A stretch of 64,000 nt of DNA from Octopus sinensis (Eukaryota). The notes under the pieces were generated by a model, which searched no databases, had not been told where the DNA came from, and saw only the letters and a list, made by a program, of their open reading frames with translations. The stretch covers positions 170,128,001-170,192,000 of the forward strand of contig NC_042997.1 of assembly GCF_006345805.1 (NCBI RefSeq), written 5' to 3'. The translations under genes and the position numbers were made by a program. Of this stretch, positions 3,201 through 57,000 are shown piece after piece; positions within the stretch are counted from its first letter, which is position 1; each line of letters opens with the position of its first letter.

Positions 3201-5746
3201 ATAAAACAATTTTAGGTCTCATCTTATGAGTATAATTTTGTGCAAAATGAGTAATGATATTTTACCTGCCTCAAGACGCTCAACTGCTCAGCAGTATATT
3301 CCCCCAAAGGCTCTACCTGGCAAAGTCATGGATCAGACGACACAAGCCATATTTGAAAAAGGCTGGGTAGATTTACGGAGTCTACATGCTTTAGAACAAT
3401 TATTAAATTTATGTGGGTCTGACTGGTTTAGTGATAGGCTTGTTGCAGTAAGTATCCTTTTTCCTTTTCTTTTGTATTTGTTCCTTAACATATCAGTCAA
3501 TTTTCTCAATTTTATAATAATACTTTAAATACAAACAAGGTTGTATTCCAAGAGAGAAATATATAAAACTAGCAGTATTGCTTGGCGTTGCTTGGGTTTG
3601 TTTTGACCCTTTAGAATTGGAATTTTTGAAAAGTAAAAATTTTGCATTATGTAGCTTGTTATTTTCTTTAAGTGAACATTTTTCTGGTTGAAATACACTG
3701 AAAAATGGCAACACAGCAGTCAACACTAGTAAAAAATAGGGATTTTCATAGAAAAAAAACTACCTTTTTGATGTAAGTAATTTTTGGTGTTAACATGGTT
3801 CGATTTGAATTTTTTCTTCTGCGGAAGGAAGAGCAAACCTTCTTCTATCATACTCTCAATTTTGGTCAACTTGCGCCGCAGGGTCTCGGAGGAGATAGTG
3901 TTAGTTGAAGGCTACCAAACCTGCCATACACAGACAACTTCAGCTTTATATATATAGAGATTGGAGAAATATGTATTTATGAAAGTATCCTTAATGGCTG
4001 TATAGTTAAGAAGTCGCTTCATAACCACATAGTTCTGAGCTTGACTCTACTCCATGGCACCTTAGGCAAGTTTCTTACACAATAGCTTTGAGTGCCAATG
4101 CCTTACAAGTGGAATTTGGTAGATAGAAACTGTGCAGATGCTGTTTTATATGCATGTATATATCTTTTGATAATACATATTGTTGAAAGAGTTAAACAGT
4201 GTTGAGGAGAAAAAAATACCCTGTATAATATTTGTTGTGCCTCAGTTGCACATCCAATCCCTTGTCACTTGAGCCATTAAAAATGCAGTGATTTAGTTAC
4301 TGTTGGAAACTAACCAGCAATATTTGTTATTGTTCTGCAAATGCAATGGCCTGGTTCTCCGTCAGTTATAACGTGTGTTCCAGTTGATGCAATTGATTGA
4401 ACAGCCTGCTCATGAAATTAACATGCAAGTGGTTGATCACTTGACAGTCACAGGGACGCTTAACATATTTCTCAGGGAGGTTCAACATGACACAGAGTGT
4501 GACAAGGCTGGCCCTTTGAATTACAGGTACTATTCAGTTTTACCAGCTGAGTAGACTTGAGCAATGAGAAATAGTGTCTTGCTCAGTGACACAGCCAGGA
4601 ATCAGACTCATAACATTACAATTGTGAGCCAAATTTCCAGCTACTATGCCACAAACCTCCTCCAAATACTATATAAAGTGAAATAATAGGCACAGGAATG
4701 GCTGTGTAGTAAGAATCTTGCTTCCCAACCACATAGTTCCAGGTTCAGTCCCACTGTGTGGCACCCTGGACAAGTGTCTTCTACTATAGCCTCGGGCCAA
4801 CCAAAGCCTTATGAGTGGATTTGGTAGAGACGGAAACTGAAAGAAGCCCATCATATATATGTGTGTGTGTATTTGTTATTTATGTCTGTGTTTGTTCCCC
4901 CGCTATTGCTTGACAACTGATGTTGGTATGTTTACATCCCTGTGTCTTGGCGATTTGGCAAAAAGAGACCAATAGAATAAGTCCTGGGGTCGATTTGCTT
5001 GGCTAAAGGCAATGCTCCAGCATGGCCACAGTCAAATGACTGAAACACCTAAAAGAATGCAAGTATCCTATTTCCATAAAGTGAAAGTATACTGCCTTAC
5101 ACTAGCCACCATATCTAACTGCGTTTAAATATAATCTCCTTGCCAGTGATTTCAGTTACTATTAGCCAATGAAGTACATTTTATTAAACACTGTTTCATT
5201 ATCATGAATAATATTTAATTGACTTATTGCTGTACATTTCAAAGATGCTTAACGAGTTCAAATTTCTTGTTCCTGCAGATGATGCTAGCTGGTAATCGGC
5301 TTGAAGATTTATCCTTATCTCTTAGTTTATCATTTGCTCTTTGCCACATGGACCTTGAGAATATCAGCTTAAGTCTGCTGTTACACACTCTTCCCAACAT
5401 ACTGAGTTCCCGACATAAAATGCATATGCTCGTCAATCCCCGAGGTGCAATGTTAGCAAAACTATGTGTTATGTGCATTGTAGGAGCTCAGATGGCAAAA
5501 TCAAATAGTAAAGGTGAGTGTATTTAATAGTAGAATCCTCTGTGTGCGTGTCTCCCTCTCAGCTACTACACACATTTTTTTTCTCTCCTTGTTTTTTTGT
5601 GTATCTTTCTGTAGAAGAGCGTAGACTCGAAACGTATAAGACTTTTTCTATTCCTGAGCGCTATACTAATACATCTGTTTGTTTGTACACCACCTGCCTT
5701 CGTCTTTTGTTTATTTTCGTAAACTTTCCCTTTATATATATATATA

Positions 5747-5791
<45 letters not shown>

Positions 5792-25500: not shown

Positions 25501-28500
25501 AGCTGAAGGAACTGGAGCAATGTGAAATAAAGTCTCTTGCTCAAGACCACAACACACAACTTGGTCCAGGAATCGATCTCACAAACTAATGTGAGCCCTA
25601 CACTCTAACCACTGAGCCGTAGTGCTCCAACATATATTAGCCCTTTAACAATACAATTAAATTTTATGGTTATCCCTGAAATGATGTTTTTTATTGGCAA
25701 AAAAATGAAACTGGCATTTTCTGTGATGATGGCAATCATGACACATCTCAGCAAAAGATAGATTGAATGTAAAACTGCTTCCTGAAGCTAATGGTAATAT
25801 TTTTAGTGGATATATTTGATTTCACAATAAAAGGGGTTAATATTCTAGAACTTCTTTTTAAGGCAGTGAGCTGGCAGAATCATTAGCATCCTAGACAAAA
25901 TGCTTAGCCACATTTCATTACCAACTTGCATGAATAATCTCAGTTTATTGAAAATTTTACTACTCGTTATATTACTTATCTAAAGTTGGTGTGAAGAGCA
26001 CTCTCTTGAGGTATTTTCCCTGAGCCATATTGCCAAGCAAACAGTTTGGAAGAACAATCAGAACCTTAGCTTTATTTTCAGTTCTTAGCAGAATGAATTT
26101 ATTTATTCATATTGAAATGTTCATAGGAGGAATCCATCTTGTTTTCCAGTGATGAAAATTACATACATATTAAGAAAGCCTCATCATAGGCGCAGGAGTG
26201 GCTGTGTGGTAAGTAGCTTGCTTACCAACCACATGGTTCCGGGTTCATTCCCACTGTGTGGCACCTTGGGCAAGTGTCTTCTACTATAGCCTCAACTGAT
26301 GTGAGTGGATTTGGTAGATGGAAACTGAAAAGAAGCCCGTTGTATATATGTATATGTGTGTGAGTTTGTGTGTCTGTGTTCGTCCCCCCAACATCGCTTA
26401 ACAACTGATGCTGGTGTGTTTACATCCCTGTAACTTAGTGGTTCGGCAAAAGAGACTGATAGGATAAGTACTAGGCTTACAAAGAATAAGTCCCAGGGTC
26501 GATTTGCTTGACTAAAGGCGGTACTCCAGCATGGCCACAGTAAAATGACTGAAACAAGTAAAAGAATATCATATCCCATTTAAACTTGAGCAGTGTGTAA
26601 CAAAATCCTTCAATATTTCTCTAAATGTTGATTCTTACTATCACCAAGAATCTCTCTTGGCAAAAGTACATCTTCAACATAGCTAAGGATACATCCCAAT
26701 GCTTGCCCCTTTACTTTTTGGCCAGAAGATACTTCATCATCCATCTAATAACCCTTTTGTTACTGTATTTATTTTGAGATACTCTATGTTTCTTTCAATC
26801 AATTTTAAATGTAACAAAGAATTTAGTAAAATAACTTAGTTATCATTAAGCGAGTGTTAGGAACATAAATTGTGACTATGGTTTGATGGAAGATTTTAAT
26901 TCAAAACTTATGAAAACAAGACATTTGTACTCAGAGCCAGAGCCGGTTTCAGCTGGGTTGGTAACGAAATGGTTAAGAGTAAGGCCCACAATAGAGTATT
27001 GCTCCCACATCTTGGATGACACTGTTGTATCTTAAGTGAAAACACGTGGCTTAGTGGTTAGGGTATTCAGTTCATGATTGTAAGGTTGTGAGTTTGTATC
27101 AGAACTGTTATTTGATTGTAATATTAGACATCTTGTCAATTTGGCTGTTTTAACCTTAAATACTAGAAAATCAGCTCACCAGAGCTTTTCTTATCATCAA
27201 GTCACATGACCCAGTTGTTAGCCAAATTAGTTGCAGGTATTGGTTGGTTTTAGCTGTCCAATCATATGTTTGCAACAGAGTTTGTTCCCAACGAGGGGAA
27301 AGCATTTTTGCCAGTGGAGCCTACCTGTGGTTATAAAAACACGAGTTTCTCCTGTTCTTAGTCTTTGGACCAGAGTATGTGTGTATATGGTCATGTGTTT
27401 CCTTCTGACAGAAACACATGACCATATACACACACATACACACATAGGGAAACATGCATCCATACATAACAGACACACGTATATAGTCACATAAACCCAT
27501 ACACATAGACACACTCAAATATGCACACATAAGGATACATAAGCACACACACACATGAATATACAGAATACATACATTCATATGTGCATACACAAGCACA
27601 CGGGTGCACATACATGTGTAAAAACAGATAAAAGAGAATGCAGCTCCAGTAATGGACAGAGTCAACATCCATTGACAAGGTTGAAAAAGCAATGAAAATT
27701 TTGGAAGAAAATATATGAATAATAAATGAGTGGAAATCGAACCGGTGCGTGTGTTAGATAATAAGGCATTAAGGCAATAGGATTTGTCCCAGACACAACA
27801 AAATTTGTTTCAACATACGAATTCACATAAAGAATCTTGCAAACCGGATTAAAAAAACAAACAAAAGAGGTAATTTCAAGAATAAATCGTCCTGGGAATT
27901 AAATTCATGGGAGGTAACTCTTGATAATTACAACATATAGAGCTAATGCTGGCTAAAATAAATTAAAATGAAAAAATTTAAGTGCTATTTTCTTTTTTAC
28001 TTATGCTAGTGAAAACAAAAACGAACAAATAAAAATAATTGATACAATTTGTAATATAGCATAATTCGTGTGTTGTAGGGCAGTAACATAGCTAGAGGAA
28101 GGAGTGAAACAGTTCTCTGCCCAGGGCGACTCTTTTATGAAGATAGCCCTTTTGGATCTCCTGTAAAAGCTTGAATAAGCTTGCTCGTGGTCCTGGCAGA
28201 CTCAAGGGCTGCGAAGTAGGCACACACTCTAGTTAAGTCACTGCTGTAAGATAAAGGGAGTTAACCAAATGGAAGCACCAGTAATTGAGAAGTTAACTTC
28301 ATTAACTGTTACTCCATGAACCCAAAACTTAACTTTGATAACCGTTAATCAGTTATTTCCTAAAGTAATGGAAGTTATTGATAAACTGTTAACGTTAATT
28401 TTTATTATAGAAAAAAAATCAAAAACTCAGTTTTTGCTCTAAAACCACATTAAGACACATTTAAAAAGTGCCAAAACTATAAAATCCATTAACTTCTATT

Positions 28501-31500
28501 GAACTGAAGTCAACGGTAGTTAACTAAAGTTGACTTCAGTTAAGTTAAATGTAACAGAAGTTAATTAGTCTGATAACGATTTCCAAAGTTAACTTCAAAG
28601 TTAAATCTTTAACGGAAATGTTAACTTTGTTAATTAATGATTAACGGTTTGGTACCCAGGTTTAGAGTTAACCATATAAATTATTGCTTTTTGTGTAGTA
28701 AATTGTTAGTTTTTGTGAATGGAGCAGAATAGTTAACAAACAAAATTTAGTAAACCATGTCAAACTGGCACTAATCCAACACTGAGGAACAACAGTTGGC
28801 ATTTCCTTCTTAATAATGGCACAACTCTTAGTAACCTATTTAGTGTTTCTGATCTGATTCTTTGACACTCTTAATGTTATGAAGTAAGTTATCAATATTT
28901 AACAATCCAGTCCTCGAATCATAGATGAAATTCGGAAGACAAAAGGACGAACACAACTCTATTTTTTGCTCTACATTACTATCTTTGGATCTTTTTGGTT
29001 TGAACGGCAGTTTTTAACATAATTTCTAGGTAACTAAAAAATTTTAAACTTCGTATACTGGTAGAATGTGTTTATAAAACATCTTTTTTTCTTGGCTTTA
29101 TTGAGAAGATTCTATAGTTTGTAAGATATTTGTTGTTTTTTTCTTCAATTTCTGCAATTTCAACCAATCACTGACGTCCATTGAGGTAAACAACATTTTG
29201 TGCCGTATGAATATGTCCCTCGTTTAAGAAACAGATTGGGTTTATTTACATTTGTGAAGAAAAAAAGAAACCCTTCCCCCCACCCTAAAATAGATTGATA
29301 CTAGGGTCATAATTTCATATGACACCAGAAAAAACTGCCATTCAAAGCGAAAAGATCCCTATCTTTTAATGTATAGAAACAGAACTATTATAAATCAGCT
29401 CACTTATTTTAACTTTTTGTCTTTTTCAGTTATGCCAAGCAATAATTTTGTTAACTGGACACAATGGACTTGTACAATCAGCTGCATTTTCAGCCACAAC
29501 AAAATGGATAGTAAGTTGTGTCTCTCTGCATATATATTTTGTTGTTGATGCCTAGCCCCTGGTCAATTCTGACTAATTAGTTCTATGATCTAAAGTATAC
29601 CAACAGAACCACCTCATCCTCTCAAACTTGCATTTTTAGGTCTATATTATCGCTTGACAACCAATGCTGGTGTATTTACATCCCCGTAACTTAGTGGTTC
29701 AGCAAAAGAAACCAATGCAATAAGTACTAGGCTTACAAAGAATAAGTCCTGAGGTCGATTTGCTCGACTAAAGGTGGTGCTCCTGCATGGCCACAGTCAA
29801 ATGACTGAAACAAGTAAAAAAGAATATATATATACATCAAATATCATTAAGTAAGGAAATAGAGATTTAATGGATATAAATTAATTTATTAACATTATTA
29901 ATAAGGCCTACAATTCTTTCAATTCACTCTCAATACAAATTACAAAATAAGTTTGCATTTAGAATATTTAGAGTAAAATACCTTCAGGACCAATGGACAT
30001 AAATGAAACTACATGTTGATTATTTAATATTCAACTGACTAAGTAGATGAGGATATGTTTAATTTTGTGAGTGTGTGTGATTGTGTGTTAACAATTTTAT
30101 ATATAAAAAAAAAAATAGAGAAAAGAAGGGAAAAAAAGGAAGCTGCATGTATAGTATGTCACTTAGAAACAGTGCTACGGATTTACCAGCACATACGAAA
30201 TTGAGACATGGCTGACCTCACACACTTCTCATGAGGAATTCTGGAAGGAGCATTGTGAGACCGCTGCTGAGACGCTTCCACAAAAAAAAAAAAAAGCTGT
30301 TGTTGGAAAACCGATTATAGCAGCGACTCCATCTAAGAATATCTGAAGAAGGAACATCATTCCAAAATATCATATCAGACTATGGATGACTAAATTACAA
30401 CAGGTATATAACCCATTGTCTGTATTATAGTGCATTATTGTACCATTCAAAACTTTTTATTATTTATATAAAATATAAAATATATATTATATCTGTTGGA
30501 GAATCTCAATTGATCAACATGTAGTTTCCTTCATGTTCATTGGCCCTGAAGATAATTTACTCTCAATTTTCAAAATGCAAACATATTTTATTCTATAGGC
30601 TTGTAATTTGTATTGAGTGTGAATTGAAACAATTGTAGGCCTTATTAAAAATGTTAATAAATTAATTTATATACATTAAATCTCTCCATTTTCTTGCTTA
30701 ATGATATTTGATATTTATGCTGAAGATATATTTCTCAACAATATAATATATTTAACCAGTGTGACTTGGTTGAAACCATCTCTATAAGAGGTTTATATGT
30801 CCTCAAAGTGACTATATATATATATATATATAGGCATCTGTGCTAGTGGAGCACTAAGAGCACCGTCTGAGCATGATTGTTGCCAGAGCAGCTAACTGGC
30901 TTCCGTACTGGTGGCATGTATAAAGCACCATTTGAGCGTGGTTGTTACCAACATCGCCTTACTGGCACTTGAAAAAACATTTGAGCAAGGTCGTTGCCAG
31001 TGCCGCTGGGCTGGCTCCTGTGCAGGTGGCAGGTAAAAAACACCATTTGAGCGTGGTCGTTGCCAGTATCGCCTGACTAGCCCTCATGCCGGTGGCATGT
31101 ATAAACACCCATTACACTCTCGGAGTGGTTGGCATTAGCAAAGGCATCCAGCTGTAGAAACTTTGCCAGATCAGATTGGAGCCTGGTGCAGCCATCTGGT
31201 TCACCAGTCCACAGTCAAATCGTCCAATCCATACTAGCATGGAAAGCGGACGTTAAACGATGATGATGATATATATATATATATATGGTGGGCTTCTTTC
31301 ACTTTCGGTCTACCAGATCCACTCACAAGGCTTTGGTTGGCCTAAGGCTATAGTAGAAGACAGTTGTCCAAGGTGCCACACAGTGGGATTGAGTCTGGAA
31401 CCATGTGTTTGGGACGCTTCTTACCACACAACCATGCCTGCACCTACAGGCATTTGTACACACATAATTGTTTTATCTTGTTTTCTTAAGAATCACAAAA

Positions 31501-34500
31501 GATGTAAATGATCAAATTTCTTATAATTTTTTTGTTTTAAATCTGCATTAAAGGCAACTGGATCTTGGGATTTTAGCATTCGAATTTGGAATTTGGATGA
31601 AGAATCTTCTAAAGAGAATGCATCTAATATGAGCCAATTGTCAAGATCTGACTTGAGGAAAAAGAAGAATCTGAAAGCTGATATATTCCCACTAAAACCC
31701 AAACCAAATCATCTTCTTCAGAAGCACAAAGGAAATGTTCATACTGTGGCATTCTCTGGAAATGATGTACTGGTAAACATATTCAATGTATAATCACTCA
31801 TACAGTAAAAAAATAGATTGAAATAAGAACAATTTATACATTTCTGATGACAATAGTACAAATAAAATACAGAAGTAATTTTTTCTTTACTGTCAGTGGC
31901 CTCAGAGCATGGTAGAGAAAAGGAAGGATAAAACCATGACTTGGGGTTTGTCTTCATACTAGAAACATCTCTGAATGCTTCAAACAGAAAGGACCCCGCT
32001 AAAAGGCATCCAGGGGCTAAAGTTAATCCATTAGCATTCAGAATACTCTGTCAAATGTCATGCCTTTTATTCACATTTGTTTTGAACTAATCAGGCATTA
32101 TCTCTTAGCTTCAAGATTTTGATGATATAATTATTTTAAAAATGACATTGTAGGGTGGCCAATTTGAACATAAAACAGGTGGAATATTTTAGCTAGATGT
32201 GGCCGTGCTCTCCTCAGTCCTCCCAATTAAACACACAACACTTGGGTTAACTAAGTTCCAGGGCAGTGGGATCAAACCTAGAAAAAAACTACATTAGTGA
32301 AGCAAACATCTTATCTAAGAATTCTAACTTTGGCACAAAGCCAGCAATTTTAAGGGAAGGGGCATGCTTATTACATCAACCCCAGTACTTGACTGTTACT
32401 TTATTGTATTTACTTTGAAAGAATGAAAGGCTAAGTTGACCTTGGCAGAAAATCTAATGAACCAGAAGAAATGCTACTAAGTTTTTTGTCTGTGGTTACA
32501 ATTTTGCTAGCTTGTTGCCGTAACCTGGTCATCATCATTGTTTAGCGTCCGCTTTCCATGCTAGCAGAAGGCTGCACCAGGCCCAGTCTGATCTGGCAAT
32601 GTTTCTACGCCTGGATGCCTTTCCTAATGCCAACCACTCTGTGAGTGTAGTGGGTGCTTTTTACGTGCCACCGGCACGCAGCGCTGGCAACGGCCACGTT
32701 CGGATGGTATGTATAAATGACTGACAATAACCTTGATGACAAATTTGTAATTTTTCCTAAATAAATCTATGCTTAGTATGGGTTGTATATTTTCTAAGAA
32801 ACTTGATTCCTTCCTCATGCTGTCTCCACCATATACCCTCCAAGCAGTCTTAGATTAAGTAAATTAACCAGGTATGCTTCTGTCTGGATCAGTGGTTCTC
32901 AACTGGGATCCATATAAGATTTTGTTGTTAAAAATTAAGTAGCAATAAATTGGTTATACTTCTACAATAGATAAAATGTTTTAAGAATTTTTAAAATTAC
33001 AATTCCTAATAATATTTAATTATAAAAATATAATTGGACTTTTTAACCACTGAATGGCTATGGAGGTCCAGTTAAATAAAATATGAATCAAAGGCATTCA
33101 TAGGCAGAAAATGGTTGAGAACCACTGGTCTAAATTATCAGGCTTGTAGTATGGACACAAAGTCTTAGTTTAAATTCTCTGTGATTCTGATTCACTTTGC
33201 TTACAAAATATGTACCAGTTGTTTACCATAAAGTCAGGCTCTGATGAAGAAAAGACATTCCACTTTTTTTTTCAGATATACTGTCTGGGACTACACTATC
33301 TAATGTATCTTTTTTATAAAGATATAATTTGAGGGATTTAACTGTTATTTTAGCAGGTCTAGAGACTCCTTCGTTGTTTAACTTTAGAGTGGCCCTAATC
33401 ATTCAAGCTACGACTAGCTTTTCCTTTTTTCAGGAATAACATAAATGTACCTAGGACTACATTATACAATTTGCTATGATTAATTCAAGCTCCCTTCATT
33501 ATCTCAAATATTTACCAGTGTAAAAACAAAAAGCACACTAAATATAATGCCCCCCTGTAGCAACTCAATGTCCTTAATTCTCTCATTTCTCATTGTGAAG
33601 GCAAGTGGTTCCTGGGACAAAACAGTATGCTTGTGGGATCCTCTGAAGGGTCAGCTACTACACTGTCTTCAAGGACATGATGGCTGGGTACAAGTTGTAG
33701 CATTTTCTCATGATAATCTCTATGTGGCAAGTGCATGTGAAGATGACACCATACGAATTTGGGTTGTTGAAAATGGGAAATGCTGCAAGGTTCTTGCGGT
33801 GAGTTCATTAACCAGTTTACAGCAGTACACATTTTTCTTTTTTTCTACGCTATCTGTAAACAGAACAGGTCTGTAATGGATTCCTAACTTGTCCATTTCT
33901 GAAACTATTAAACATTTTCTGATCTGATTAAATCTCACTATTTTTTGGTATCTCTCCATTCATCATTATAATGGATGATACATCAATTTTGCTACATGTT
34001 CAGAGAGCATTTTCACAAATCTTGGGTAAATAGTTATTCTGTTTATCCATGCTGGTATGATTTAGACAAAACTTATTCATGCAGATTTTCTACAGCTGCT
34101 CGTCAATAATCCTTACTATGGTTGTAGGGTTACAAATTGTTCCATGCTCAAACCCTCTGTGACATCTTATGAGTCTTCTAAGTCTTTAATCAAACAATGC
34201 CATGAGTGGAACTGGTAGTTGGAAACTGATAAAACACTTTGGCCTTTTGTGTAAATCTCAGCTGTTTCCTCTGGGAAGCATGTCTGCTTATTCCTTACAT
34301 GCCTATATATATGTAAATCTTTGTAATATTTACATAATTCCAGGTGGTAAACATGACAATTTTCTAAATTCACCTCCCATCAAGAAGCTTCAATCTTTTC
34401 TGTGGAAAATTTATTGATGTGGAGATATGATTAAATAACAGACAAGTATATTAACATATTCAATTGCTCTTTTTTTGCAGACTAAAACAGAAACAGTACA

Positions 34501-35050: not shown

Positions 35051-38000
35051 TTACTTCTTCTTGGCCACACCAACAGTCCTACCACGACGACCGGTTGTTT
35101 TAGTGTGCTGACCTCGGACACGCAAACTAAAAACAGAAAAGAAAAGTTTATCATATAAAACCACATTGTGATGTTTCAACAACTTCAAAACATATGCATG
35201 AGAATTCTTACATTTCATTAAAAAAGAAAAAAACCCACAATAGTCATTATTATTGCAGTATTAAGTTCATGGACTTTTTTTCAAATCATGCTAGATGTAT
35301 GTCTCTAGAGAGGAAACACCCGAAATCTTGTTAATCAAACTGCAGTTAAGATTTATCCAATTATATAAAACTATCAAACAAACCAGGGGCATGAGATTCT
35401 ATTCTTGCTTTCAGAACAAAATTATTTTTTTTTCACTCCATTTAAGCAATGATTCTAGTTTCCCCAATAAAAAAAAAATGGATACTACTATCATGGCAAG
35501 TAGACTAACAATATTTAACAGATTTCTTCAAAATATCTGATTAAGTTCTCTTATAGATAAGTTATCCATGTCAGCTAAACATATGCAATTTACTTTTACA
35601 CAACCAGACTCCTCCAACGTGTAATCTTAGCATATCAGCAACATGCTATCTTAAAACATTTCCAATAAAAAATATACTGACCCCCAGAAATGACGCAGAC
35701 CACGATGAGCTCTGATCTTTTTTAACCGCTCCAAATCTTCACGCAACTTGTTGTCAAGAGCATTTGCCATAATTTGACTGTATTTTCCATCTTTAATGTC
35801 CTTCTGTCTGTTAAGGAACCAGTCAGGAATTTTGTACTGACGAGGGTTTGACATGACTGTTAAAACTCTATCAACCTGAAATAAAAAAAACAAGCAGCAT
35901 TACTAACACAACTCTGAAATAGTTTAGTTGACATCAAAGAATGATTATAGAAAAGGCATTATCCCATCATGAATAGTTGTCAGATTCAATTTAGATGCAG
36001 GCAACTACACTGTAATGAAGTCAAATTATCAAAAGCTAAATTTTTGGTTCATGAATAACAGATCCAAAATGAAATTTACATTTGACTAAATTATGAATTA
36101 TATGCACAAGGTTCCTAGGTATAAGCTTTCTTTATCTCTCCCTTTTAGCTTGCCCAAGATTTGTACTGCTTTCGCCTCACTCATCAATCAGCATTGAAAA
36201 TCCATGGACAATCTTTCGTTTTGACTCGAAATAATGTAAACAATGAATTCGGTCGTTTCCGTGACCACATGTTGTCTTGTCAACTGTCAGTTGGGAAGAG
36301 AAAGCTAATGGGTTGTGTGTGCGCCCTTATTCTTGTTCTTCTGTGTATGTGTGTGTTGGTTCTGTTTTTATGTATTTATATGTTGTGGAATGTAGAAATA
36401 ACACAGAGGAACAAACAAGTCAAAACGAAAGATCGCCCATCCATGTCCTGATGGATCTTTTCACCCACCAGCACTATTGAGATTGTTTTATGCCAGTGGA
36501 TAAGGGGAATGAGACACAATGCATGTTCGTGTAGGGGAGTTACATAGCCACTCAAACTTTCTAGAAAAGGGCGAGAAATGGAAAACATATACAATTCTTC
36601 ATAGGAAAATAAAGAAAAAACTGGAATTTTTACCTCCTCTTCTGTCATTTCACCAGCACGTTTATTTAAATCAATATTGGCCTTTTTACAAACTACATTG
36701 GCAAATCGTCGTCCAATACCCTAAAGAAAACAAAACAGCGTAAATTTATTCGAATGAACAAACATTAAGCATCAAATCCAAAACGTTTTAGAGAGAAAAA
36801 AGCAGCAAAAATTAAGTGAAATGGCTGCAAATTTCAAGCCCTACAAAACTCACCTTAATGGCAGTAATAGCAAACATCGACTTCCTACGACCGTCGATGT
36901 TCGTATTCATAATACGCAGAATATGCTGAAACTTCTCTGGGATTACGAGCGACTGAAAGTAAAAAGAAAACGTGTAAATTTAATAGTAGAGAGGGTTGGA
37001 TAAGTAGTACCCAATTCTTTAGTTTGGTAAATTCGCAGCTAACTAGTTTTGAGGCTTAAATCATTCTTTCTCATGTAGGATTTTACAGACGCCGATTTGG
37101 GATTGTATATGCGATTTATTACAAGCATTTGCATGAATAGTTTAACCATGTAACGGAAGACTATATTAACAAACCCTATCTTAATTAAAAACAATATGCA
37201 ACACAAGCCAAAATGTACGTGTGGAGCATTTTCATTCGTGATAAAGTGTGCTTTACATGATCTAAACAAAATTCATCGCGCTACTGTTTTGTTCAATTCC
37301 AGATCACTGAGTCAATCAATAAAGGTGTTACAACGATTCCCTTTTTATTTAGATCTTGTGAGTGAATTTGGTAGACGGAAACTGAAAGAAGCCCGTCGTA
37401 TACATATATATATGTGTGTTTATCCCTCCAACATCGCTTGACAACCGATGGTGGTGAGTTTACGTCCCCGTAACTTAGCGGTTCGGCAAAAGAAACCAAT
37501 AGAATTTACGTTCTGAGCTTCCAATGAATAAGTCCTGGGATCGATTTGCTCGACTAAAGGCGGTGCTCCAGCATGGCCAGTCAAATCATTGAAACAAGTA
37601 AAAGAAATCCAGCGGTCTTCCCAATAACCTCGATGGCTTTCGTATACAAACAGAAACCATCATACAGTTTTTTCTAAAGAATAAACAATGCTACAGATGT
37701 TTTCAAGTATTAAATATTTAACAAGGGCAGTAATGTTTAATTCAATTTAGTTATTCCACCCGACTATTCATGTGTGGACGACGAAACGAAATCCTACATG
37801 TTGCTAAAAGGGAGCACGGCTTCCGAGTGGTTTAAACGAAGTATTGTAATATTTAATTTTACAATTTATATTAGATAATATTAATATGGTAGGTAAAAGA
37901 CCTGCTGGAAGCTCAAACTACAGTGGACTAATGAAGGGTTTTCTTTAAAAAAGCACTAGAGAACGGTGCGTGGCAGCAGAATAACTTTCTCAGGTTTTAT

Positions 38001-47500: not shown

Positions 47501-48521
47501 GTTGTAGGAAGGTGGTTTCTGTAGCTTTGCTTCTGAGTTTATTCACTTTCACTATTCTTACAGTGTCTGTGTTTTTTTTTTTTAACCTTTCAGCATAATT
47601 GAAATCTGAATGTAATTTTTCTGTGAACAGACATATCGTGGATACCCCAGTGACTGAGCGAGAATTTATGGAACAACTGAATGAATTGAATCATAAAATA
47701 AATTTTGTCAAGGAACAGTCGTTTAAAGAGGCTCGCTCTTGCCAGGATGTCCGTGATATTCTTGAAAAACTCAAGACTAAGGTATATTACTAAACTAATC
47801 AAAAGCATCTGACATAATTATTCATTTACATGTTGTGAATCATTGTTATCGTTTTAAAACTTGCAAGTTTCTATTTTATTAACTATAACATATCTCTTAC
47901 GTTGATACATTGAAGAAGGATATAGTTGATTGAATCAACGCTAAGAGTTGCTGAAGCATGGAACAAACTGCCGGCACCAGTTGTTAGTTGTCGGAGCACT
48001 GTATCCTTCAAAACTTCCATGCTTCCTGAGATTCACCAACACTACACCTGATTTTCTCCCCTCCATACACACGCAAGCATGTATCTGACTCATACACTGT
48101 TCACTTTCATTGTTCACTTGTACATTACTGCGTATGCTTTATACGCACTTTTGACAAGTTGTGGTGCACCTGAGCACTGTATACAATTTCATTATTATTA
48201 GCAGGTGTTTATTTATTGGGTATCAGAACAAGAAAAGGCAAATTGTGTGATATCATTTGAACTCCAAATACTATAAGACAGTATTAAATATTATATTAAT
48301 GGCATTCCCCTGTGTCTGTCTCTGAATCACCTATTTTTAACTGTGACAAAAATAATAACCATTTTTATATTTCTACAAGGTTATTGGACTATAACTATGT
48401 TGGGGGTAATGTTTTCGAGGTACTCAATTTATCAGGTTGTTTACCGGAGTTATGTCCCTTCCAGAAAATTATTCCTCCGTCACTTCGAATTTAAATGCAA
48501 CAATTATGCAGTCTCTCTCTC

Positions 48522-48568
<47 letters not shown>

Positions 48569-50520
48569 GAGGCTTCGTACAATTTCTGTCAACCAGCTCC
48601 ATATATACACAAAAGTAATCAACCTACCCGATTATCATATAAGACACTTGTCCAAGATGTCATGCGTTAGGTTCGAACCCAGTACTACGTGATTACGAAG
48701 CAAATTTCGTAAGTCATCTAAAGTTCTTTTATATTTTTAGGCTTTAAGCAAAATACGGGAATACCTTCTTCAGAAGATTTACTCATTTAGGAAACCGATG
48801 ACCAATTACCAAGTACCTCAAAACACTATGCTTAAATTCAGGTCGGTTGCTACCTTTCTGTTGCATTTTTTTTCTTTATTTTTGGAAGTGTATTTTGTAA
48901 GGAATTTGATATTGAGATAAATGTGGAGAATGGCAACGTCATTTGCAAAAAGTGTAGAATGTATAAAAACATCAATAAAATAATGTTTGCAATTTTTTTT
49001 TAGTCCAAGGTATACTTAGGTAACTTACAAGTATTTAATTAGAAAAAAAAACATTATAAAAAAATCCAATTAATTTTCATATATCATGATGTATGATTCA
49101 GTCGTACCTTTGTAAGTATTAAGCCAAAAAAAAAAAAAAAAAAAAGATAATTTGAAAACTTAGAAGTATCTAATTAGAAATGACATAAAAATATTGTAAG
49201 AGTAGAAATCTCAAAACGATGCTATTAGTAAATGATAATTTACTTTCGTTTTGGGATTTCAAAGAAAACATTTCTTTTTTTTTTTTGCATTCCCCATTTA
49301 TTGGAAATTGCGCTACAATTCCCCACACTTGCTGACATTTATAATGTAGAAGCCCTGTGTTTTGTGGTTATGAAGTATATGTTAACCCTCAATTCAGCGC
49401 TGATTGTATAGACCTATGATCAAAAAGCGTTCCAGTAATAAGCATTTCGTATTTTAGTTTGAAGATGTTAAGGGTGTGCTTGGAAAGATATTTTACTGCT
49501 ATTTCTAGCAGGTGCAATTACTACTCAAAAAATTATCTTGACCTGCGTACTGATTAGTAATTACGGAGTTGTGTCCCTTAATTATTTCTTTTTAGTGATA
49601 TTTAGCGCCCATACGCTTTAGCATAGCAAGGGAAGTCACTATGTTAAATCACAATCCACGTTTATAACGAGGATTGAAGATGAAGTAGTGTTGTTATTTA
49701 CACTCTATAAGTATGTGAGACAATGTTGTGTATGTATTAGTGTGTGTGTGTATATATTTATTTTATCTAGTTTCAGCTCACGAGCTGTGGCCATGCTGGG
49801 GCACCGCCATTTCAAACAATATATATATATAACTTATAAATAAGGGCAAACGAAAAAAATTTCTAATGCCAAATATGCCGAAATTAGACACCCTGTCCAT
49901 AACCATATAATTTTTCACAATACGCACGCTATTCAAAAAAAGGTCGACAGAAATCTCTAAAAAAATTTCATTATTACCACATTGGACAAGTATCTCATTT
50001 ATTTCTTTGCCATATTTATCACTGATGAAGGGAGGGTTCTTACGAACTAACCCTGAAATCGGTCCGATGTGGTCATAATGGAATTCTTTAGAGATTTCTG
50101 TCGACCTTTTTTTGAGTAGCATGTGTATTGTGAAAAATTATATGGTTATGGACAGGGTGTCTAATTTCGGCATATTTGGCATTAGAAATTTTTTCGTTTG
50201 CCCTTATTTATAAGTTGTTTATGAATTTAACCTTTAAAGGTATTTTTTAATATGCTGGCCATTGATGAAATTTTTTTTTCGAAAAAATTTTATCCTACAT
50301 TAAATATATATATATATATTTGTTGAAATGGAAAGATGAATTTTCTTGTTACGGATTATTCAAAAGTTTAACCGATACCTGGGTAGCAAAAATCACCTGC
50401 AATATGGTATCCTTATTAATCAGAATTTGGAAAATTGTGGCCTTTGAAACATGTATAGAATGTAATAAAAGGAATTCTGTACAATCTTCGTTCAACTCCA
50501 TTTCTTCATTCACTAATATA

Positions 50521-50558
<38 letters not shown>

Positions 50559-51045
50559 CACCTAAATGTAGCTAACCCTTAAGGGTCGATGCTACTGTAG
50601 CTTGTAGCCCCAGGAAGACATCTCCTCCAGCTAGCTATTGACACACTATCTGTGCCCTGGTGGCAAATATACTTCACGATGACAGAGATTTATCATTGCT
50701 TGTTTGCACTTTTTCAAGATCAGTGACTTTTCGTCACTGGAAAAAGTATATATATTTGCATTGAGAACCACTTCTCATGGCCAACCAGTGGTTGTCACAC
50801 ACTGATGACAGATTAGTATCCAGAAACTCGGGTTCGTGTGTATCACGTCAGGCTGGAGATGGTAACGATGACTTCCCTTTGCAAATACTGATAGGGCACA
50901 GATAGTGTGTCAATAGCTAGGGAGGAGATATCTTCCTGGGGCTACAAGCTATAGGAGCATCGACTCTTAAGGGTTAGCCACATTTAGGTGGCAAATATAC
51001 TTCATGATGTCGTGCAGCTACTGTTTATAACTTGCTCAGAGATTT

Positions 51046-51090
<45 letters not shown>

Positions 51091-54000
51091 AGTAAATCAT
51101 AAATCCAAAATAGAAACACACTCTAAGTTATAGAGCAGTAGAGTATACAGATAAAGATAGATATGGGCAGTCTATGGGGTTACCCTGGGTTTCACATCCA
51201 TAATAGCTGGTCTCTAGTGTACTCTGGGTTTCACGTCCCTAATGCGTATAGCTTTACAGCATTTATTCAGACTCTAAAGCCCATTGGTCTATGGCTTTTC
51301 TAGCCATAGGCTAGAGGGTTTTAGGGTTTGAAGAAATGCTGTAAAGCTAAATACTTTATGGACGTGAAATCCATGGTAACCCCATAGACTGGCCATTTCT
51401 ATCTTTATCCATGCATGCATGCATGTTAATATTGACTTCAAGTTAATTTTGTTATCTTCATTAGAAAGCAAGTAAGGTGAAACTTCGAAGTTACTGTCAA
51501 TTTATTTTTCCTTGTAAAATCCAAATAAATATGATGTATTCTTTAAATATCTTGAGTGATCCTTTCATTAATGTTTTACAGTTATATATAATCTCATTTG
51601 GCAAATACTCTACTGAAAATTTACTTCAGTTGAACATTATAGGTATGTCTGTTTGTCTTGCTAGGTTCTTCAATGAATTCCTCATGAGCCATGAAAGACA
51701 AGTAGCCAAAGAGATTCGTGATGAATATGTGGACACTATGAGCAAAGTTTATTATTCTTATTTTAAAGGATACACAAGTCGACTCATGAAACTTCAGGTA
51801 TTCTTTTATGGTTTATTATTTACATATTTATCTAGCAAGATTTTCCAAAAATAATTATTTTAAATGAAGGGAACTATGGATTCAGCTAATTATTAAAAGT
51901 TTTAGCTGATGAATATGAAAAAAAGAGAGGGCTCCATGAAGACTGCAAATGTTCTCACCATCCCTACCCCTCCCTACCCCTAGTCTCGACCTATGTAAGG
52001 TAATGTTCATACAGTGCAAAATATGAAAGGCTAGCGTTATGCAGGTTGTACTGAAGGCTACTTTACTACTTCATTTCTTGCACATGAATTCTGCCAAATG
52101 CGAGCTTTCTTTTCAGGTACACGAAGCTACTGTCCACCGTCCCAGGGTCTCTAGAGCCCATGCCTCCCACACCTCAACGTTGGCACTCTGAAAGGTAGGT
52201 CTGGTGAGATAGTCGAGATGCTTGAACGGAGATGTGTGGATATATGTTGCATGCAAGAAATAAGGTGGAGAGGAGATCAGCTAGGTTCCTCACAGGCAAG
52301 GAACGCAGGTACAAGATTTTCTGGGCAGGGAACACTGACGGGGTTGGTGGCGTGGGTATACTTATCGCTGAGAAATGGGTAGATAAAGTAATTGAGGTAA
52401 TCAGAGTATGTGACAGAATACTTAAGATTAGATTAGTGCTTCATCATAGTTTAGCAACCATTATATCAGCCTATGCTCCTCAGTCGGGGCTACCCGATGG
52501 ACAGAAAGACCGATTCTATGACACTCTACTGCAGACTACCTCGTTGACGAACGACAGAGACCTTATCTTTGTGGCTGGTGACTTCAATGGTCACGTTGGA
52601 CGACATGCTGGGGGCTTCCATGGCGTACATGGAGGCTATGGCTATGGCTCCCGCAACGAGGAGGGAACCAGGCTGCTGGAGTTCTGCGATGCAAATAATC
52701 TTATGATTTGCAACACTAACTTCAGGAAACCTACCAGCCACCTAGTCACTTACCAATCGGGCCAACATACCAGCCAAATTGACTACATCCTTACAAGGCA
52801 AAGGGAGAGATGGCTGCTTATAAATGCCAAAACCTTCCAGGTGAAGAATGTACCCCACAACATAGACTGGTAGTTAGTGACTTTAGGATCAGGACTAGGA
52901 GGACAACCAGAAGACGACAAATATGGAGAAGAAGGATCTGGAAGCTTAAAGATCCTGCAAATGGACAGAGATTTAGGGACATATTACTTGAAGCCTCTGA
53001 CGAAGTAGAAGGGGATAGAGCATCACAGGGGGTAGAAGACAGCTGGACGTTTCTAAGGGACAACCTGCTGAGAGCCACTGACCAGATCTGTGGCTGGTGC
53101 AAAGTCCCCTCTCGACCTAGAATAACGTGGTGGTGGAACAATATTGTAGACAGGGCTATTAGAGAAAGAGACAGGCTTGGAAGGTCTGGAAAAATGGGGG
53201 TAGCAGGGGATTGTATCAGACTGCCAAAAGAGAAGCTAGGAGACAGGTTTATTTAGCCAGAGGGGAAGCAGATAAGAAAAAATTTGCCAATGTTCTGCGC
53301 CGTGAGGACCAAAGACTGGAGGTGTTTCGTGTTGCAAGACAGTGTGTGAGAGAGAATCGTGATGTGGTGTAGGAGAGAAGTGTGTTCGCATGGAAGATGG
53401 TTCACTTGCGCTAAATGAGGATGCAAAGAGAGAGGTTTGGAGATGCCACTATGAAAGGTTGCTGAATGAAGAAAATGAATGGGATAAAGAGAGTCTGCCG
53501 AATGTTGACCCAACAGAGGGACCAGCTATCCGAGTTGATAGTTCCGTGGTAGCTAAGGCAATTAGAAGCATGAAGACAGGGAAGCCCCAGGCCCATCAGG
53601 AATCACTGCAGAGATGCTCAAAATGTCTGGTAGTGTCGGCTATAGCCTAGTCACCCGTATAGTTAATCAGGTGATACACAAAGGGGTCATACCCAATGAC
53701 TGGTGTAGCAGTATAATAGTCAACTGCTACAAAGGTAAAGGTGATGCCCTAGATACAAATAACTACAGAGGTATCAAGCTGTTGGACCAGGTGATGAAGG
53801 TTACGGAGAGGGTCATAGCCCAACTAATTAGAGAGAGAGTTAGTTTAGATGAGATGCAGTTTGGGTTTGTGCCAGGGAAAAGTACTACTGATGCTATATT
53901 CCTGGTAAGGCAGCTGCAGGAGAAATACCTAGCCAAAGATAAGCCCCTGTACCTGGCTTTTGTTGACATGGAGAAAGCCTTCGACAGGTCCCCCGATCCC

Positions 54001-57000
54001 TTATCTGGTGGGCAATGAGGAAACTAGGGATAGATGAATGGTTAGTGAGAGCTGTGCGGGCCATGTACAGGGACGCCGCTAGTAGGGTGAGGGTTGGAAA
54101 TGTACAGTGAAGAATTCCGGGTAGAGGTAGGAGTCCACCAAGGCTCAGTACTCAGCCCCCTCCTATTTATCATAGTCCTCCAGGCAATAACGGAGGAATT
54201 CAAGACAGGATGCCCTTGGGAGCTCCTCTATGCTGATGACCTTGCTCTAATTGCTGAGTCGCTATCAGAACTGGAGGAGAAGTTTCAGGTGTGGAAACAA
54301 GGATTAGAATCGAAGGGCCTCAGAGTCAATCTAGCTAAAACCAAAGTCGTAATCAGTAGGAAGGTAGACAAATCACAAACACCTTCAGGTAGATGGCCCT
54401 GCTCGATCTGTAGAAAAGGTGTAGGTAGAAACTCTATAAGATGCACCAAGTGTAAGCTATGGACACATAAGAGATGCAGCAATGTCAAAGGAAGGCTAAC
54501 TAGGAAGATGGTTTTTGTATGTGGCAGATGCTCAGGAACAATAAACACTGAAAATGCTCTGAGACCAACTTCCGTCACTTTCCAGGGAGAAAAACTAGAA
54601 ATAGTTGATAGTTTCCGTTACCTAGGTGACCAAGTCAGCAGCGGGGGCGGGTGTGCTGAAAGTGTAACTGCTAGAGTAAGAATAGCTTGGGCAAAGTTCA
54701 GAGAGCTCTTACCTCTGCTGGTGACAAAAGGCCTCTCGCACAGAGTGAAAGGCAGACTGTATGATGCGTGTGTACGAACAGCCATGCTACATGGCAGTGA
54801 AACATGGGCCGTGACTGCCGAGGATATGCGTAAGCTTGCTAGAAATGAAGCCAGTATGCTCCGATGGATGTGTAATGCCGGTACTCACACTCGGCAGAGT
54901 GTAAGTACCTTGAGAGAAAAGCTGGACCTAAGAAGCATCAGTTGTGGTGTGCAAGAGAGACGTTTGCGCTGGTATGGTCATGTGGCGAGAATGGATGAAG
55001 ATAGTTGTGTGAAAAAGTGCCACACCCTAGCGGTTGAGGGAACCTGTGGAAGAGGCAGACCCAGGAAAACCTGGGACGAGGTGGTGAAGCACGACCTTCG
55101 AACTTTAGGTCTCACTGAGGAAATGACTAGAGACCGAGACCTCTGGAAGTGTGCTGTGCGCGAGAAGACCCGGCAGGACAAGTGAGTCCATAACCCGTGG
55201 CCTTCTACATGGGATGGAGCCAGCCTACGTATGCATACCTTCCCTTCTTGGGACACAAAACTCTACTTGTGAAGATGTGATGAGGCAAGTGAGGATCAGA
55301 ATCGAAATCGATCAATGGAAATTGCGGATGTGCTACCAGTGCCGGTGGCATGTCAAAACTCTGCTTGTGAAGACCCGTTGAGGCAAGTGAGGATCAGAAT
55401 CGAAATCGATCAATGAAATCGATCAATGGAAATTGCAGATGTGTTACCAGTGCCGGTGGCATGTAAGAGAACTTTCCGTTTCGCGACCGTTGCCAGCACC
55501 GCCCCGTTTCGTGTCCGTTGCCAGCCTCGCCTGGCCCTCGTGCCGGTGGCACATAAAAAGCACCATCCGTTCGTGGCCGTTTGCCAGCTCTGTCTGGCAC
55601 CAGTGCGGGTGGCACGTAAAAAGCACCCACTACACTCACGGAGTGGTTGGCGTTAGGAAGGGCATCCAGCCATAGAAACACTGCCAGATTTGACTGGGCC
55701 TGATGAAGCCTTCTGGCTTCACAGACCCCAGTAGAAACGTCCAACCCATGCTAGCATGGAAAACGGACGCTAAACGATGATGATGATGATGATGATGATG
55801 TCATCATTATCATCATCATCATCGTTTAACATCCGCTTTCCATGCTAGCATGGGTTGGACAATTTGACTGAGGTCTGGCAAACCAGATGGCTGCACCAGG
55901 CCCCAATCTGATCTGGCAGGGTTTCCACAGCTGGATGCCCTTCCTAATGCCAACCACTCCGAGAGTGTAGTGGATGCTTTTATATACCACCGGCACGAGG
56001 GCCAGTCAGGCGATACTGGCAACGGCCATGCTCAAATGGTGCTTTTTATGAGCCACCTGCACAGGAGCCAGTCCAGCGGCACTGGCAACGACCACACTTG
56101 AATGTTTTTTCATGTGCCACCAGTACAAGTGCCAGTGTATAAAGTAATTATATTTTGTACTAGAAGTTAATTTCCATTTTTTTCATATCACTTATTTCTC
56201 TGATAACTTTTAGAAGAATCAACTAGTAGATACAGTAAAGCAGACTACAGCTGCAGAGAGTAAAACCAAGACTTCAACATTATTCTCCATCACTTTATCA
56301 AAATTGACTTTTTAAAGGTGCCTAATCTTTAAAGATCATTATCTTCTGGCCTCAGTGTTTTAATAAACATTTAACTCTTCAGCATTTAAACTGGCCAAAT
56401 ATGTAATATTTGTAGCTTCAAGATTTTAATGATGTCATTGTTTATTTTTAGAATGACACTGTAGGGTTACCCTACAGTGTCATTTTAAAAGTAAACAATC
56501 ATATCATTGAAATAATGATGAGACAAGATAATACATGATAAATTTTTTAAAAAGTGTTTAAATAAGTATTATATTTGATAAATTAATTTGAATGCGAAAG
56601 GGTTAAATAACAAAGACTATAGATGATTATTGCATGTAATGACACTATTTGTAATGTGTGATGTAACAGGCAGTTTGTAGTGAACATCACTTAGCTTTTC
56701 TTATCTAGTTTACCCTCTCTGCTAATCCACAAGTCATATGATATTTTCAAGGGGAGGACTTCATTAGTGATCTCACTTGTAGAAGATGGGGAGGAAAAAA
56801 CATGGTTTAGACTATTTTTAGAATTCCATTTTAGAAGGTATTTTGTGACCATATGACAGGTTAATATTTCTAACTGAATGTGTTGCTTACATTTCTTTTA
56901 CAGTATGAAGAGCTTGCAGACAAAGATGACTTGATGGGAATTGAAGATACAGCAAAGAAAGATATCCTTAAATTTCAATATTTCTAAATTTTATATTCCT

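What the first reader, a model, noticed from the sequence alone, without database searches (positions are those of the whole stretch)
49831..51088. Recurring architecture: hammerhead ribozyme inside a long inverted repeat beside (TA)n
Seen: three sequence-unrelated elements (29836-30712, 49831-50216, 50558-51050) each have long inverted arms, a hammerhead core in the spacer and (TA)n flanks; a fourth core at 5604 also abuts (TA)n. All four are on the sense strand of their host pre-mRNA and all are damaged, several by CpG-to-CpA changes. Known: Penelope-like elements carry minimal, dimer-acting hammerheads in pseudo-LTRs that can be inverted. Inference: several short, non-coding, retrozyme-like families that favour TA repeats; intronic sense copies may be tolerated only after inactivation.
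Basis: partly seen in the sequence, partly recalled or inferred. Interest (0 to 1): 0.72.

Follow-up and report, generated by a model that had tools for sequence, protein, structure and literature searches.

The report
Penelope retroelement ends with hammerhead motifs
These hairpin-shaped inserts are tail ends of several Penelope-type jumping genes that carry a hammerhead (self-cutting RNA) motif and sit at TA repeats, a known pattern; complete-looking copies are about as common on the gene's own strand as on the opposite one, so introns show no sign of purging them.

Summary
The hammerhead cores, inverted arms and (TA)n flanks are real, and all four named copies are damaged relative to their families, two by CpG changes. 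The reading needs three corrections.

1. Only the two VPS52-intron elements (B, 477-nt unit; C, 356-nt unit) are non-coding, retrozyme-like tandem units. The 30343 and 5609 cores are truncated 3' ends of coding Penelope-like elements (PLEs) with an upstream RT/GIY-YIG ORF.
2. The arms at 29836-30712 belong to a fifth family (E, Hydra-like). It carries its own complete sense-strand hammerhead at 30546; family A is nested inside it.
3. 'Tolerated only after inactivation' is not supported. In 1.37 Mb from 38 gene bodies, descriptor-complete motifs were 21 sense versus 14 antisense, and the complete fraction was equal (11/36 vs 13/48, p=0.81).

The arms are the known inverted 5'-truncated copy, likely from two-site reverse-transcription priming at a TA target. 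The core lies in the 'spacer' only because the shorter arm stops before it. The scan reported two-armed hammerhead families elsewhere in this genome before. One small oddity: family D has a fixed A6U core. Cleavage is untested.

The parts
49821..49987 (-). Family B: inverted, 5'-truncated second copy (unit positions 396 to 232), starting in (TA)n
   Evidence: (92% to a natural 477-nt unit)
49988..50308 (+). Family B: forward copy, unit 158-477, including the 78-nt tail; ends at (TA)n
   Evidence: 95%
50017..50074 (+). Family B type-I hammerhead: CUGAUGA at 50022, GAAA at 50055, near-palindromic stem III; cleavage-site base is G (50069) where the family has A
50516..50556 (.). (TA)n left of element C
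50550..50658 (-). Family C: inverted truncated copy (unit about 318 to 210)
50659..51050 (+). Family C: short tandem remnant, full 356-nt unit (from 50683) and 12-nt start of the next unit
50796..50840 (+). Family C hammerhead: CUGAUGA at 50802; stem I and stem II CpG-to-CpA changes, C17>U
51049..51088 (.). (TA)20 at the 3' end of C
48840..51662 (+). VPS52 intron holding B and C (boundaries approximate by a few nt)
   Evidence: joint 48839-51663, GT..AG; Pfam Vps52
29830..30095 (-). Family E: inverted copy (left arm) with a damaged hammerhead; inner boundary read from the sequence
30096..30492 (+). Family A: 3' UTR/pLTR end of a coding PLE, nested in E; hammerhead core at 30343 with G12>A (30364)
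30493..30815 (+). Family E: forward copy with tail, ending at (TA)n; 3' end of a Hydra-like PLE
30542..30641 (+).
5561..5733 (+). Family D: 3' end of a coding PLE with a CX4CxxC linker, in a MED24 intron; hammerhead 5604-5641 with family-fixed CUGUNGA core
5733..5790 (.). (TA)29 at the 3' end of D
27668..27705 (+). Further minimal hammerhead (U3-A8 core at 27672, G10.1-U11.1, UU site) in a WD40-gene intron; passes the descriptor

Best explanation
These are 3' ends of five unrelated Penelope-like retroelement families, each carrying a type-I hammerhead motif, inserted at (TA)n in introns; three trace to coding elements and two are short non-coding tandem units likely copied by a borrowed Penelope enzyme. 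Likely mechanism (inferred from the copies and from PMC11167929): a GIY-YIG/RT enzyme cuts a TA repeat and primes reverse transcription on both DNA ends, at two fixed internal sites of the RNA. This would give two head-to-head cDNAs truncated at different points, one with and one without the tail. The core appears between the arms only when the shorter cDNA stops before reaching it. The short, palindromic stem III predicts cleavage only as a dimer, so lone intronic copies are probably near-silent and decay neutrally, often at CpG.
For: Coding link: A copies run upstream into an RT-thumb/GIY-YIG ORF (Pfam PF01541 E=1.3e-5 and 1.3e-4). D copies run into an ORF with a CX4CxxC linker and GIY-YIG (Pfam E=0.0056, below cut-off). 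E has a GIY-YIG-like ORF upstream on the same strand in 3 of 4 loci where it was found (Pfam E=0.0023, below cut-off). Non-coding units: the unit's own tail lies directly upstream in 16/20 B and 16/20 C copies found with 5'-end queries. Two fixed 3' ends: B 17 and 21 of 44; C 19 and 22 of 47. One arm at each site in 11 of 21 two-armed B loci (my count). (TA)>=4 at the 3' end: B 19/20, D 26/30, C 7/20, A 12/29, against 4.8% background. An intact natural B copy cofolds as the double hammerhead. Sense versus antisense: 16 vs 13 short-stem, 5 vs 1 long-stem, p=0.31 pooled; complete/damaged 11/25 vs 13/35, Fisher p=0.81. Literature: PMC4209133, PMC8557442, PMC11167929, bioRxiv 10.64898/2026.07.22.740005.
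Against: No cleavage was shown for any family. No autonomous partner of B or C was found (50 loci each; tblastn hit only the first 21-44 residues of the query, which lie outside the PLE part of the ORF). Within B there is no covariation above shuffles (30/500 reach the score). The D/sister-family covariation is one pair and probably one event. Intact natural A, C and D copies did not cofold as a double hammerhead. One of 4 E-linked endonuclease fragments is in the opposite orientation. The orientation test is small and clustered (7 of 16 sense and 4 of 13 antisense hits in one gene) and cannot exclude a mild purge.
Confidence: 0.87

Rival explanations
1. Selection removes active sense-strand hammerheads from introns, so surviving sense copies are the inactivated ones.
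For: 4 of 4 named window copies are sense and damaged. Non-LTR retrozymes are reported as under-represented in Xenopus introns, with no orientation test in the passages seen.
Against: Complete motifs were 21 sense vs 14 antisense. The complete fraction was the same on both strands, p=0.81. 60 of 84 gene-body copies are damaged regardless of strand, so 4 of 4 has probability about 0.26. Two complete sense motifs sit in the window itself.
Confidence: 0.06
2. B and C are the pseudo-LTR ends of coding PLEs whose ORF-bearing copies were not sampled, rather than independent non-coding families.
For: A, D and E looked non-coding in the window but trace to ORFs. Searches score only 40 candidates.
Against: Upstream of the unit start lies the unit's own tail in 16/20 B and 16/20 C copies, and in none a shared ORF.
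Confidence: 0.1
3. The armed elements are MITEs or fold-back DNA transposons with TA targets that captured hammerheads.
For: Long inverted ends flanked by TA; armed copies of E with almost no spacer exist.
Against: Arms vary in length, are optional (10/20 B, 8/20 C) and are unequal at the outer ends. Copies form head-to-tail partial tandems, and E links to a GIY-YIG ORF.
Confidence: 0.03

Closest known systems
Minimal type-I hammerheads in PLE pseudo-LTRs (Cervera and De la Pena 2014, PMC4209133; parts 1-2 of 4 read)
   Same: Short stem I, tiny palindromic stem III, mostly single dispersed copies from truncated PLEs, opposite-strand pairs 100-700 bp apart, U3-A8 variant; monomers inactive and dimers weak in vitro.
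   Different: Family D has a fixed U at position 6 and family E a 73-nt stem II; neither appears in the text read. Supplementary figures were not seen.
C-terminal EN+ PLEs: Neptune/Nematis and Hydra clades (Craig et al. 2021, PMC8557442; passages read)
   Same: 5' truncation, partial tandems, inverted 5'-truncated copy, tail at one end, (TA)n bias. D has the CX2-5CxxC linker. E has a CxC linker, no CCHH seen and a downstream CxxC, as described for Hydra.
   Different: Tails here are about 45-100 nt against 30-40 nt described. Clades were assigned by motif only, with no tree. A (C-x4-C-x7-C linker, CCHH-type) is unassigned.
Metazoan non-LTR retrozymes (PMC7229834, passages; bioRxiv 10.64898/2026.07.22.740005, part 1 of 5 and passages)
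   Same: Non-coding 350-480-nt head-to-tail units with a type-I hammerhead, proposed to be PLE-derived.
   Different: In the copies examined B and C occur as dispersed partial tandems and two-armed inserts, not long arrays. Loop-loop tertiary contacts and circular RNA were not shown.
PAc Poseidon element in vitro (Frangieh et al. 2024, PMC11167929; passages read)
   Same: Two internal RT start sites define the tail; both target strands are cut and extended; hammerhead cleavage is not needed for insertion in vitro.
   Different: PAc cleaves an ATT motif and its hammerhead overlaps the ORF start. Here the targets are (TA)n and the motifs lie in 3' ends. The inverted arm is my inference and was not found in the passages read.

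Membership tests
EN+ Penelope-like element (families A, D, E) | Single ORF with RT and C-terminal GIY-YIG endonuclease upstream of the pLTR | tested here: met
   A: ORF fragments and Pfam PF01541 over cut-off. D and E: GIY-YIG hits below cut-off plus motifs. No full-length ORF was examined; RT fragments were recognised by recalled motifs, with no Pfam RT hit.
EN+ Penelope-like element (families A, D, E) | 5' truncation, optional inverted copy and tail | tested here: met
   Variable 5' ends. Two 3' end classes in A and E, a single end in D. Inverted copies in E; none directly upstream in 29 A or 56 D copies.
EN+ Penelope-like element (families A, D, E) | RT phylogeny within a PLE clade | not tested
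   No tree built; no reference PLE proteins at hand.
Minimal type-I hammerhead | CUGANGA ... GAAA ... UH core with stems I, II and palindromic III in the family majority | tested here: met
   A, B, C, E majorities meet it. Complete segments, window copy included: A 16/33, B 18/31, C 7/34, E 4/22.
Minimal type-I hammerhead | Canonical A6 in family D | tested here: not met
   U6 in 31 of 31 aligned segments. Its sister family has A6. It works like a hammerhead by fold; the core is a variant.
Minimal type-I hammerhead | Covariation in stems | tested here: inconclusive
   B: none above shuffles. D plus sister family: one C-G/G-C swap, 11 cells, 0/500 shuffles, probably one event.
Minimal type-I hammerhead | Self-cleavage (monomer or dimer) | not testable with these tools
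   Needs an in vitro assay. Only contigs were available, and they cannot show RNA ends.
Non-LTR retrozyme (families B, C) | Non-coding head-to-tail unit of a few hundred nt with a type-I hammerhead | tested here: met
   477-nt and 356-nt units; own tail upstream in 16/20 each; no PLE ORF in flanks.
Non-LTR retrozyme (families B, C) | [quoted passage not shown] | tested here: inconclusive
   Mostly partial tandems. A few loci have two cores in tandem, e.g. L006. Dimers were not counted systematically.
Non-LTR retrozyme (families B, C) | Expressed as monomeric linear and circular RNA | not testable with these tools
   No raw RNA reads were offered.
MITE / TIR DNA transposon | Obligatory, matched terminal inverted repeats | tested here: not met
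   Arms optional, variable and unequal.

The most novel reading that the evidence does not exclude
In this genome the hammerhead of PLE ends is kept as a fold recognised by the retrotransposon enzyme rather than as a catalyst. A young, abundant coding family (D, copies 93-98% alike) has fixed A6U, a core position where a natural A6C change is reported to cut activity. Other families carry U4C or UU sites, and complete sense copies are not purged from introns. D against its A6 sister family would be a natural test pair for what PLE hammerheads are for.
Probability: 0.2. Interest if true: 0.55.

Novelty: new member of a known kind. Interest (0 to 1): 0.27.

Why it matters
Mostly it adds families to a described pattern. 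Two things are useful. First, an orientation test shows that complete minimal hammerheads persist on the sense strand of introns, which fits weak, dimer-only activity; two paper searches listed no title or abstract opening on such a test. Second, the genome offers natural core variants (A6U, U4C, U3-A8, long stem II) for asking whether PLE hammerheads need to cleave at all, a question the papers read leave open.

Tried and rejected
- Rfam scan: no hammerhead family among 31 matches at E<=5; these were mostly microsatellite-driven miRNA hits.
- Cornichon hit at 48277 (E=0.0017, below cut-off) rejected: it lies inside the VPS52 intron 47780-48738 shown by RNA-type contigs.
- First guess that the 29836-30712 arms were a MITE rejected after finding polarity, a tail, their own hammerhead and a linked endonuclease.
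- My first descriptor (stem II up to 35 nt) missed family E; it was extended.
- Search for an autonomous partner of B or C in flanks: none found. This is not proof of absence.
- Sequencing runs: no RNA holder listed, only contigs of guessed kind, so there is no statement on expression, cleavage ends or circles.
- The WD40 junction across A/E (29511 to 31657) was not directly shown. Exons on both sides were joined to other exons.
- Pfam gave no RT hit for the D fragments.
- Paper searches for an A6U hammerhead gave no listing on it. Only a natural A6C variant was found (PMC3088659, passages). Supplements of PMC4209133 and PMC8557442, which may list such variants, were not read.
- In the homology tally, self-matches and alignments not spanning the whole motif were dropped. 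That is why it counts 11 complete sense copies where the descriptor counts 16.

Full report
Setting. The window lies on contig C1 of a 2.72-Gb animal genome. Pfam places MED24 exons, a WD40 gene and VPS52 on the + strand and RPS18 on the - strand. RNA-type contigs join 47779-48739 and 48839-51663 with GT..AG ends in 3 of 4 runs from two studies. The two elements at 49831-51088 therefore share one VPS52 intron, on the sense strand. A contig joins 25185 to 29428 and another joins 31771 to 33600 in the WD40 gene; the junction spanning 29836-30815 itself was not shown.

Observation. The arms, cores and TA tracts are present. Each core belongs to a repeat family with 2,134-4,274 first-look candidates, of which 40 were scored and 30 loci cut out per search. 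Family majorities have complete cores in A, B and C; D has CUGUNGA in 31 of 31 segments. The window copies carry G12>A (A, CpG), A17>G (B), two CpG-to-CpA stem changes plus C17>U (C), and a broken first stem I pair (D). Complete segments among the best hits were A 16/33, B 18/31, C 7/34 and D 23/31 (D scored with U6 allowed). These sets favour young copies and copies resembling the window.

What each is. A: other copies extend upstream into an RT-thumb and GIY-YIG ORF ending about 260 nt before the motif (Pfam). D: copies found with an upstream query extend into an ORF with a CX4CxxC linker and GIY-YIG, the linker described for Neptune/Nematis (PMC8557442). B and C: natural copies define 477-nt and 356-nt units. 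Among copies found with 5'-end queries, 16 of 20 in each family are preceded directly by the tail of the same unit; the rest start in microsatellite or other DNA. No PLE ORF was found in the flanks of 50 loci per family. The arms of 29836-30712 are absent from all 29 other A loci, and the A segment is absent from all 18 other arm loci. These arms form family E, which has a fixed polarity and a tail to 30815. A GIY-YIG-like ORF lies upstream on the same strand in 3 of 4 loci where it was seen, with motifs resembling the Hydra clade. E has its own hammerhead with a 73-nt stem II, complete in 4 of 22 segments, including the window's sense arm at 30546. The simplest reading of that locus is an A end inserted into a two-armed E insert (inference).

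Architecture. With queries that held no arm and no TA, an inverted copy lay upstream in 10/20 B, 8/20 C and 0/30 D copies, and (TA)>=4 followed the 3' end in 19/20, 7/20 and 26/30. A gave 12/29 and the background was 4.8%. B and C end at two sites (17 and 21 of 44; 19 and 22 of 47). In 11 of 21 two-armed B loci one arm ends at each site (my count). Inverted 5'-truncated copies, tails and TA bias are described for PLEs (PMC8557442). A purified PLE cuts and extends both strands and starts RT at two internal sites that delimit the tail (PMC11167929). I infer that the two arms are two cDNAs primed from the two cut ends. When both are long enough, both carry the core: four such opposite-strand pairs appeared in the gene-body scan, as already noted in PMC4209133.

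The selection idea. I took spans between ordered same-strand exons of myosin, kinesin and dynein domains: 140 stretches, 1,368,200 nt, 38 genes. A minimal-hammerhead descriptor found 16 sense and 13 antisense motifs, with 0 in three shuffles. With the canonical CUGANGA core alone it found 7 versus 3; without the most crowded gene, 9 versus 9. A long-stem version found 5 versus 1, with 0 in two shuffles; pooled p=0.31. Using 126 complete motifs in 21 clusters as a library, complete/damaged copies were 11/25 sense and 13/35 antisense, Fisher p=0.81. With 60 of 84 copies damaged, four of four damaged has probability 0.26. Limits: 'complete' is not 'active', large introns may hide nested genes, and a mild bias is not excluded. 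The result fits the reported inactivity of monomeric minimal hammerheads (PMC4209133).

Structure support. An intact B copy cofolds as the double hammerhead; intact A, C and D copies did not. Covariation is absent within B and limited to one swapped stem I pair between D and a sister family with A6. The case for the fold therefore rests on recurrence across unrelated families and zero shuffle hits, not on within-family covariation.

Verdict. A, D and E are new members of known PLE groups; B and C are PLE-type non-coding units that meet part of the retrozyme definition. Earlier notes of this scan describe similar two-armed families on other pieces of this genome. I used them as leads only. The one unexplained detail is the fixed A6U core of D. 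A natural A6C variant is reported to be slow (PMC3088659), and my two searches listed nothing on A6U. Unread supplements may cover it.

Noticed in passing
Six more long-stem-II motifs were found in gene bodies.
   Followed up: yes
window 27668-27705 (+): U3-A8 variant minimal hammerhead in a WD40-gene intron; relatives show CTA/TAG versus CCA/TGG in stem I.
   Followed up: partly
all fetched loci: At least 21 hammerhead clusters among 126 complete short-stem motifs, with CUGANGA, CUGUNGA, CCGANGA and UUGANAA cores.
   Followed up: partly
L245 (G000:C4:80200500-80210499): Six complete motifs of four families within 10 kb of a kinesin intron, including two near-identical opposite-strand pairs.
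   Followed up: no
window 52226-55185 (+): Frameshifted LINE-like ORF (endonuclease and RT motifs recognised by recall, RTE-like) inside VPS52.
   Followed up: no
window 35651-36720 (-): RPS18 gene between the WD40 gene and VPS52.
   Followed up: no
L353:818-1480 (-): Mariner-like transposase fragment (recalled motifs) between two family E arms.
   Followed up: no
L054, family B unit about 30 nt upstream of the core; window 49988-49996: A 5' splice-site-like motif (GTAAGT) lies just upstream of the hammerhead in family B; PLEs are known to carry introns near the pLTR.
   Followed up: no
window 55696-55903: Head-to-head pair of an abundant (GAT)n-tailed repeat forming a 103-nt palindrome that mimics miRNA models.
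   Followed up: no
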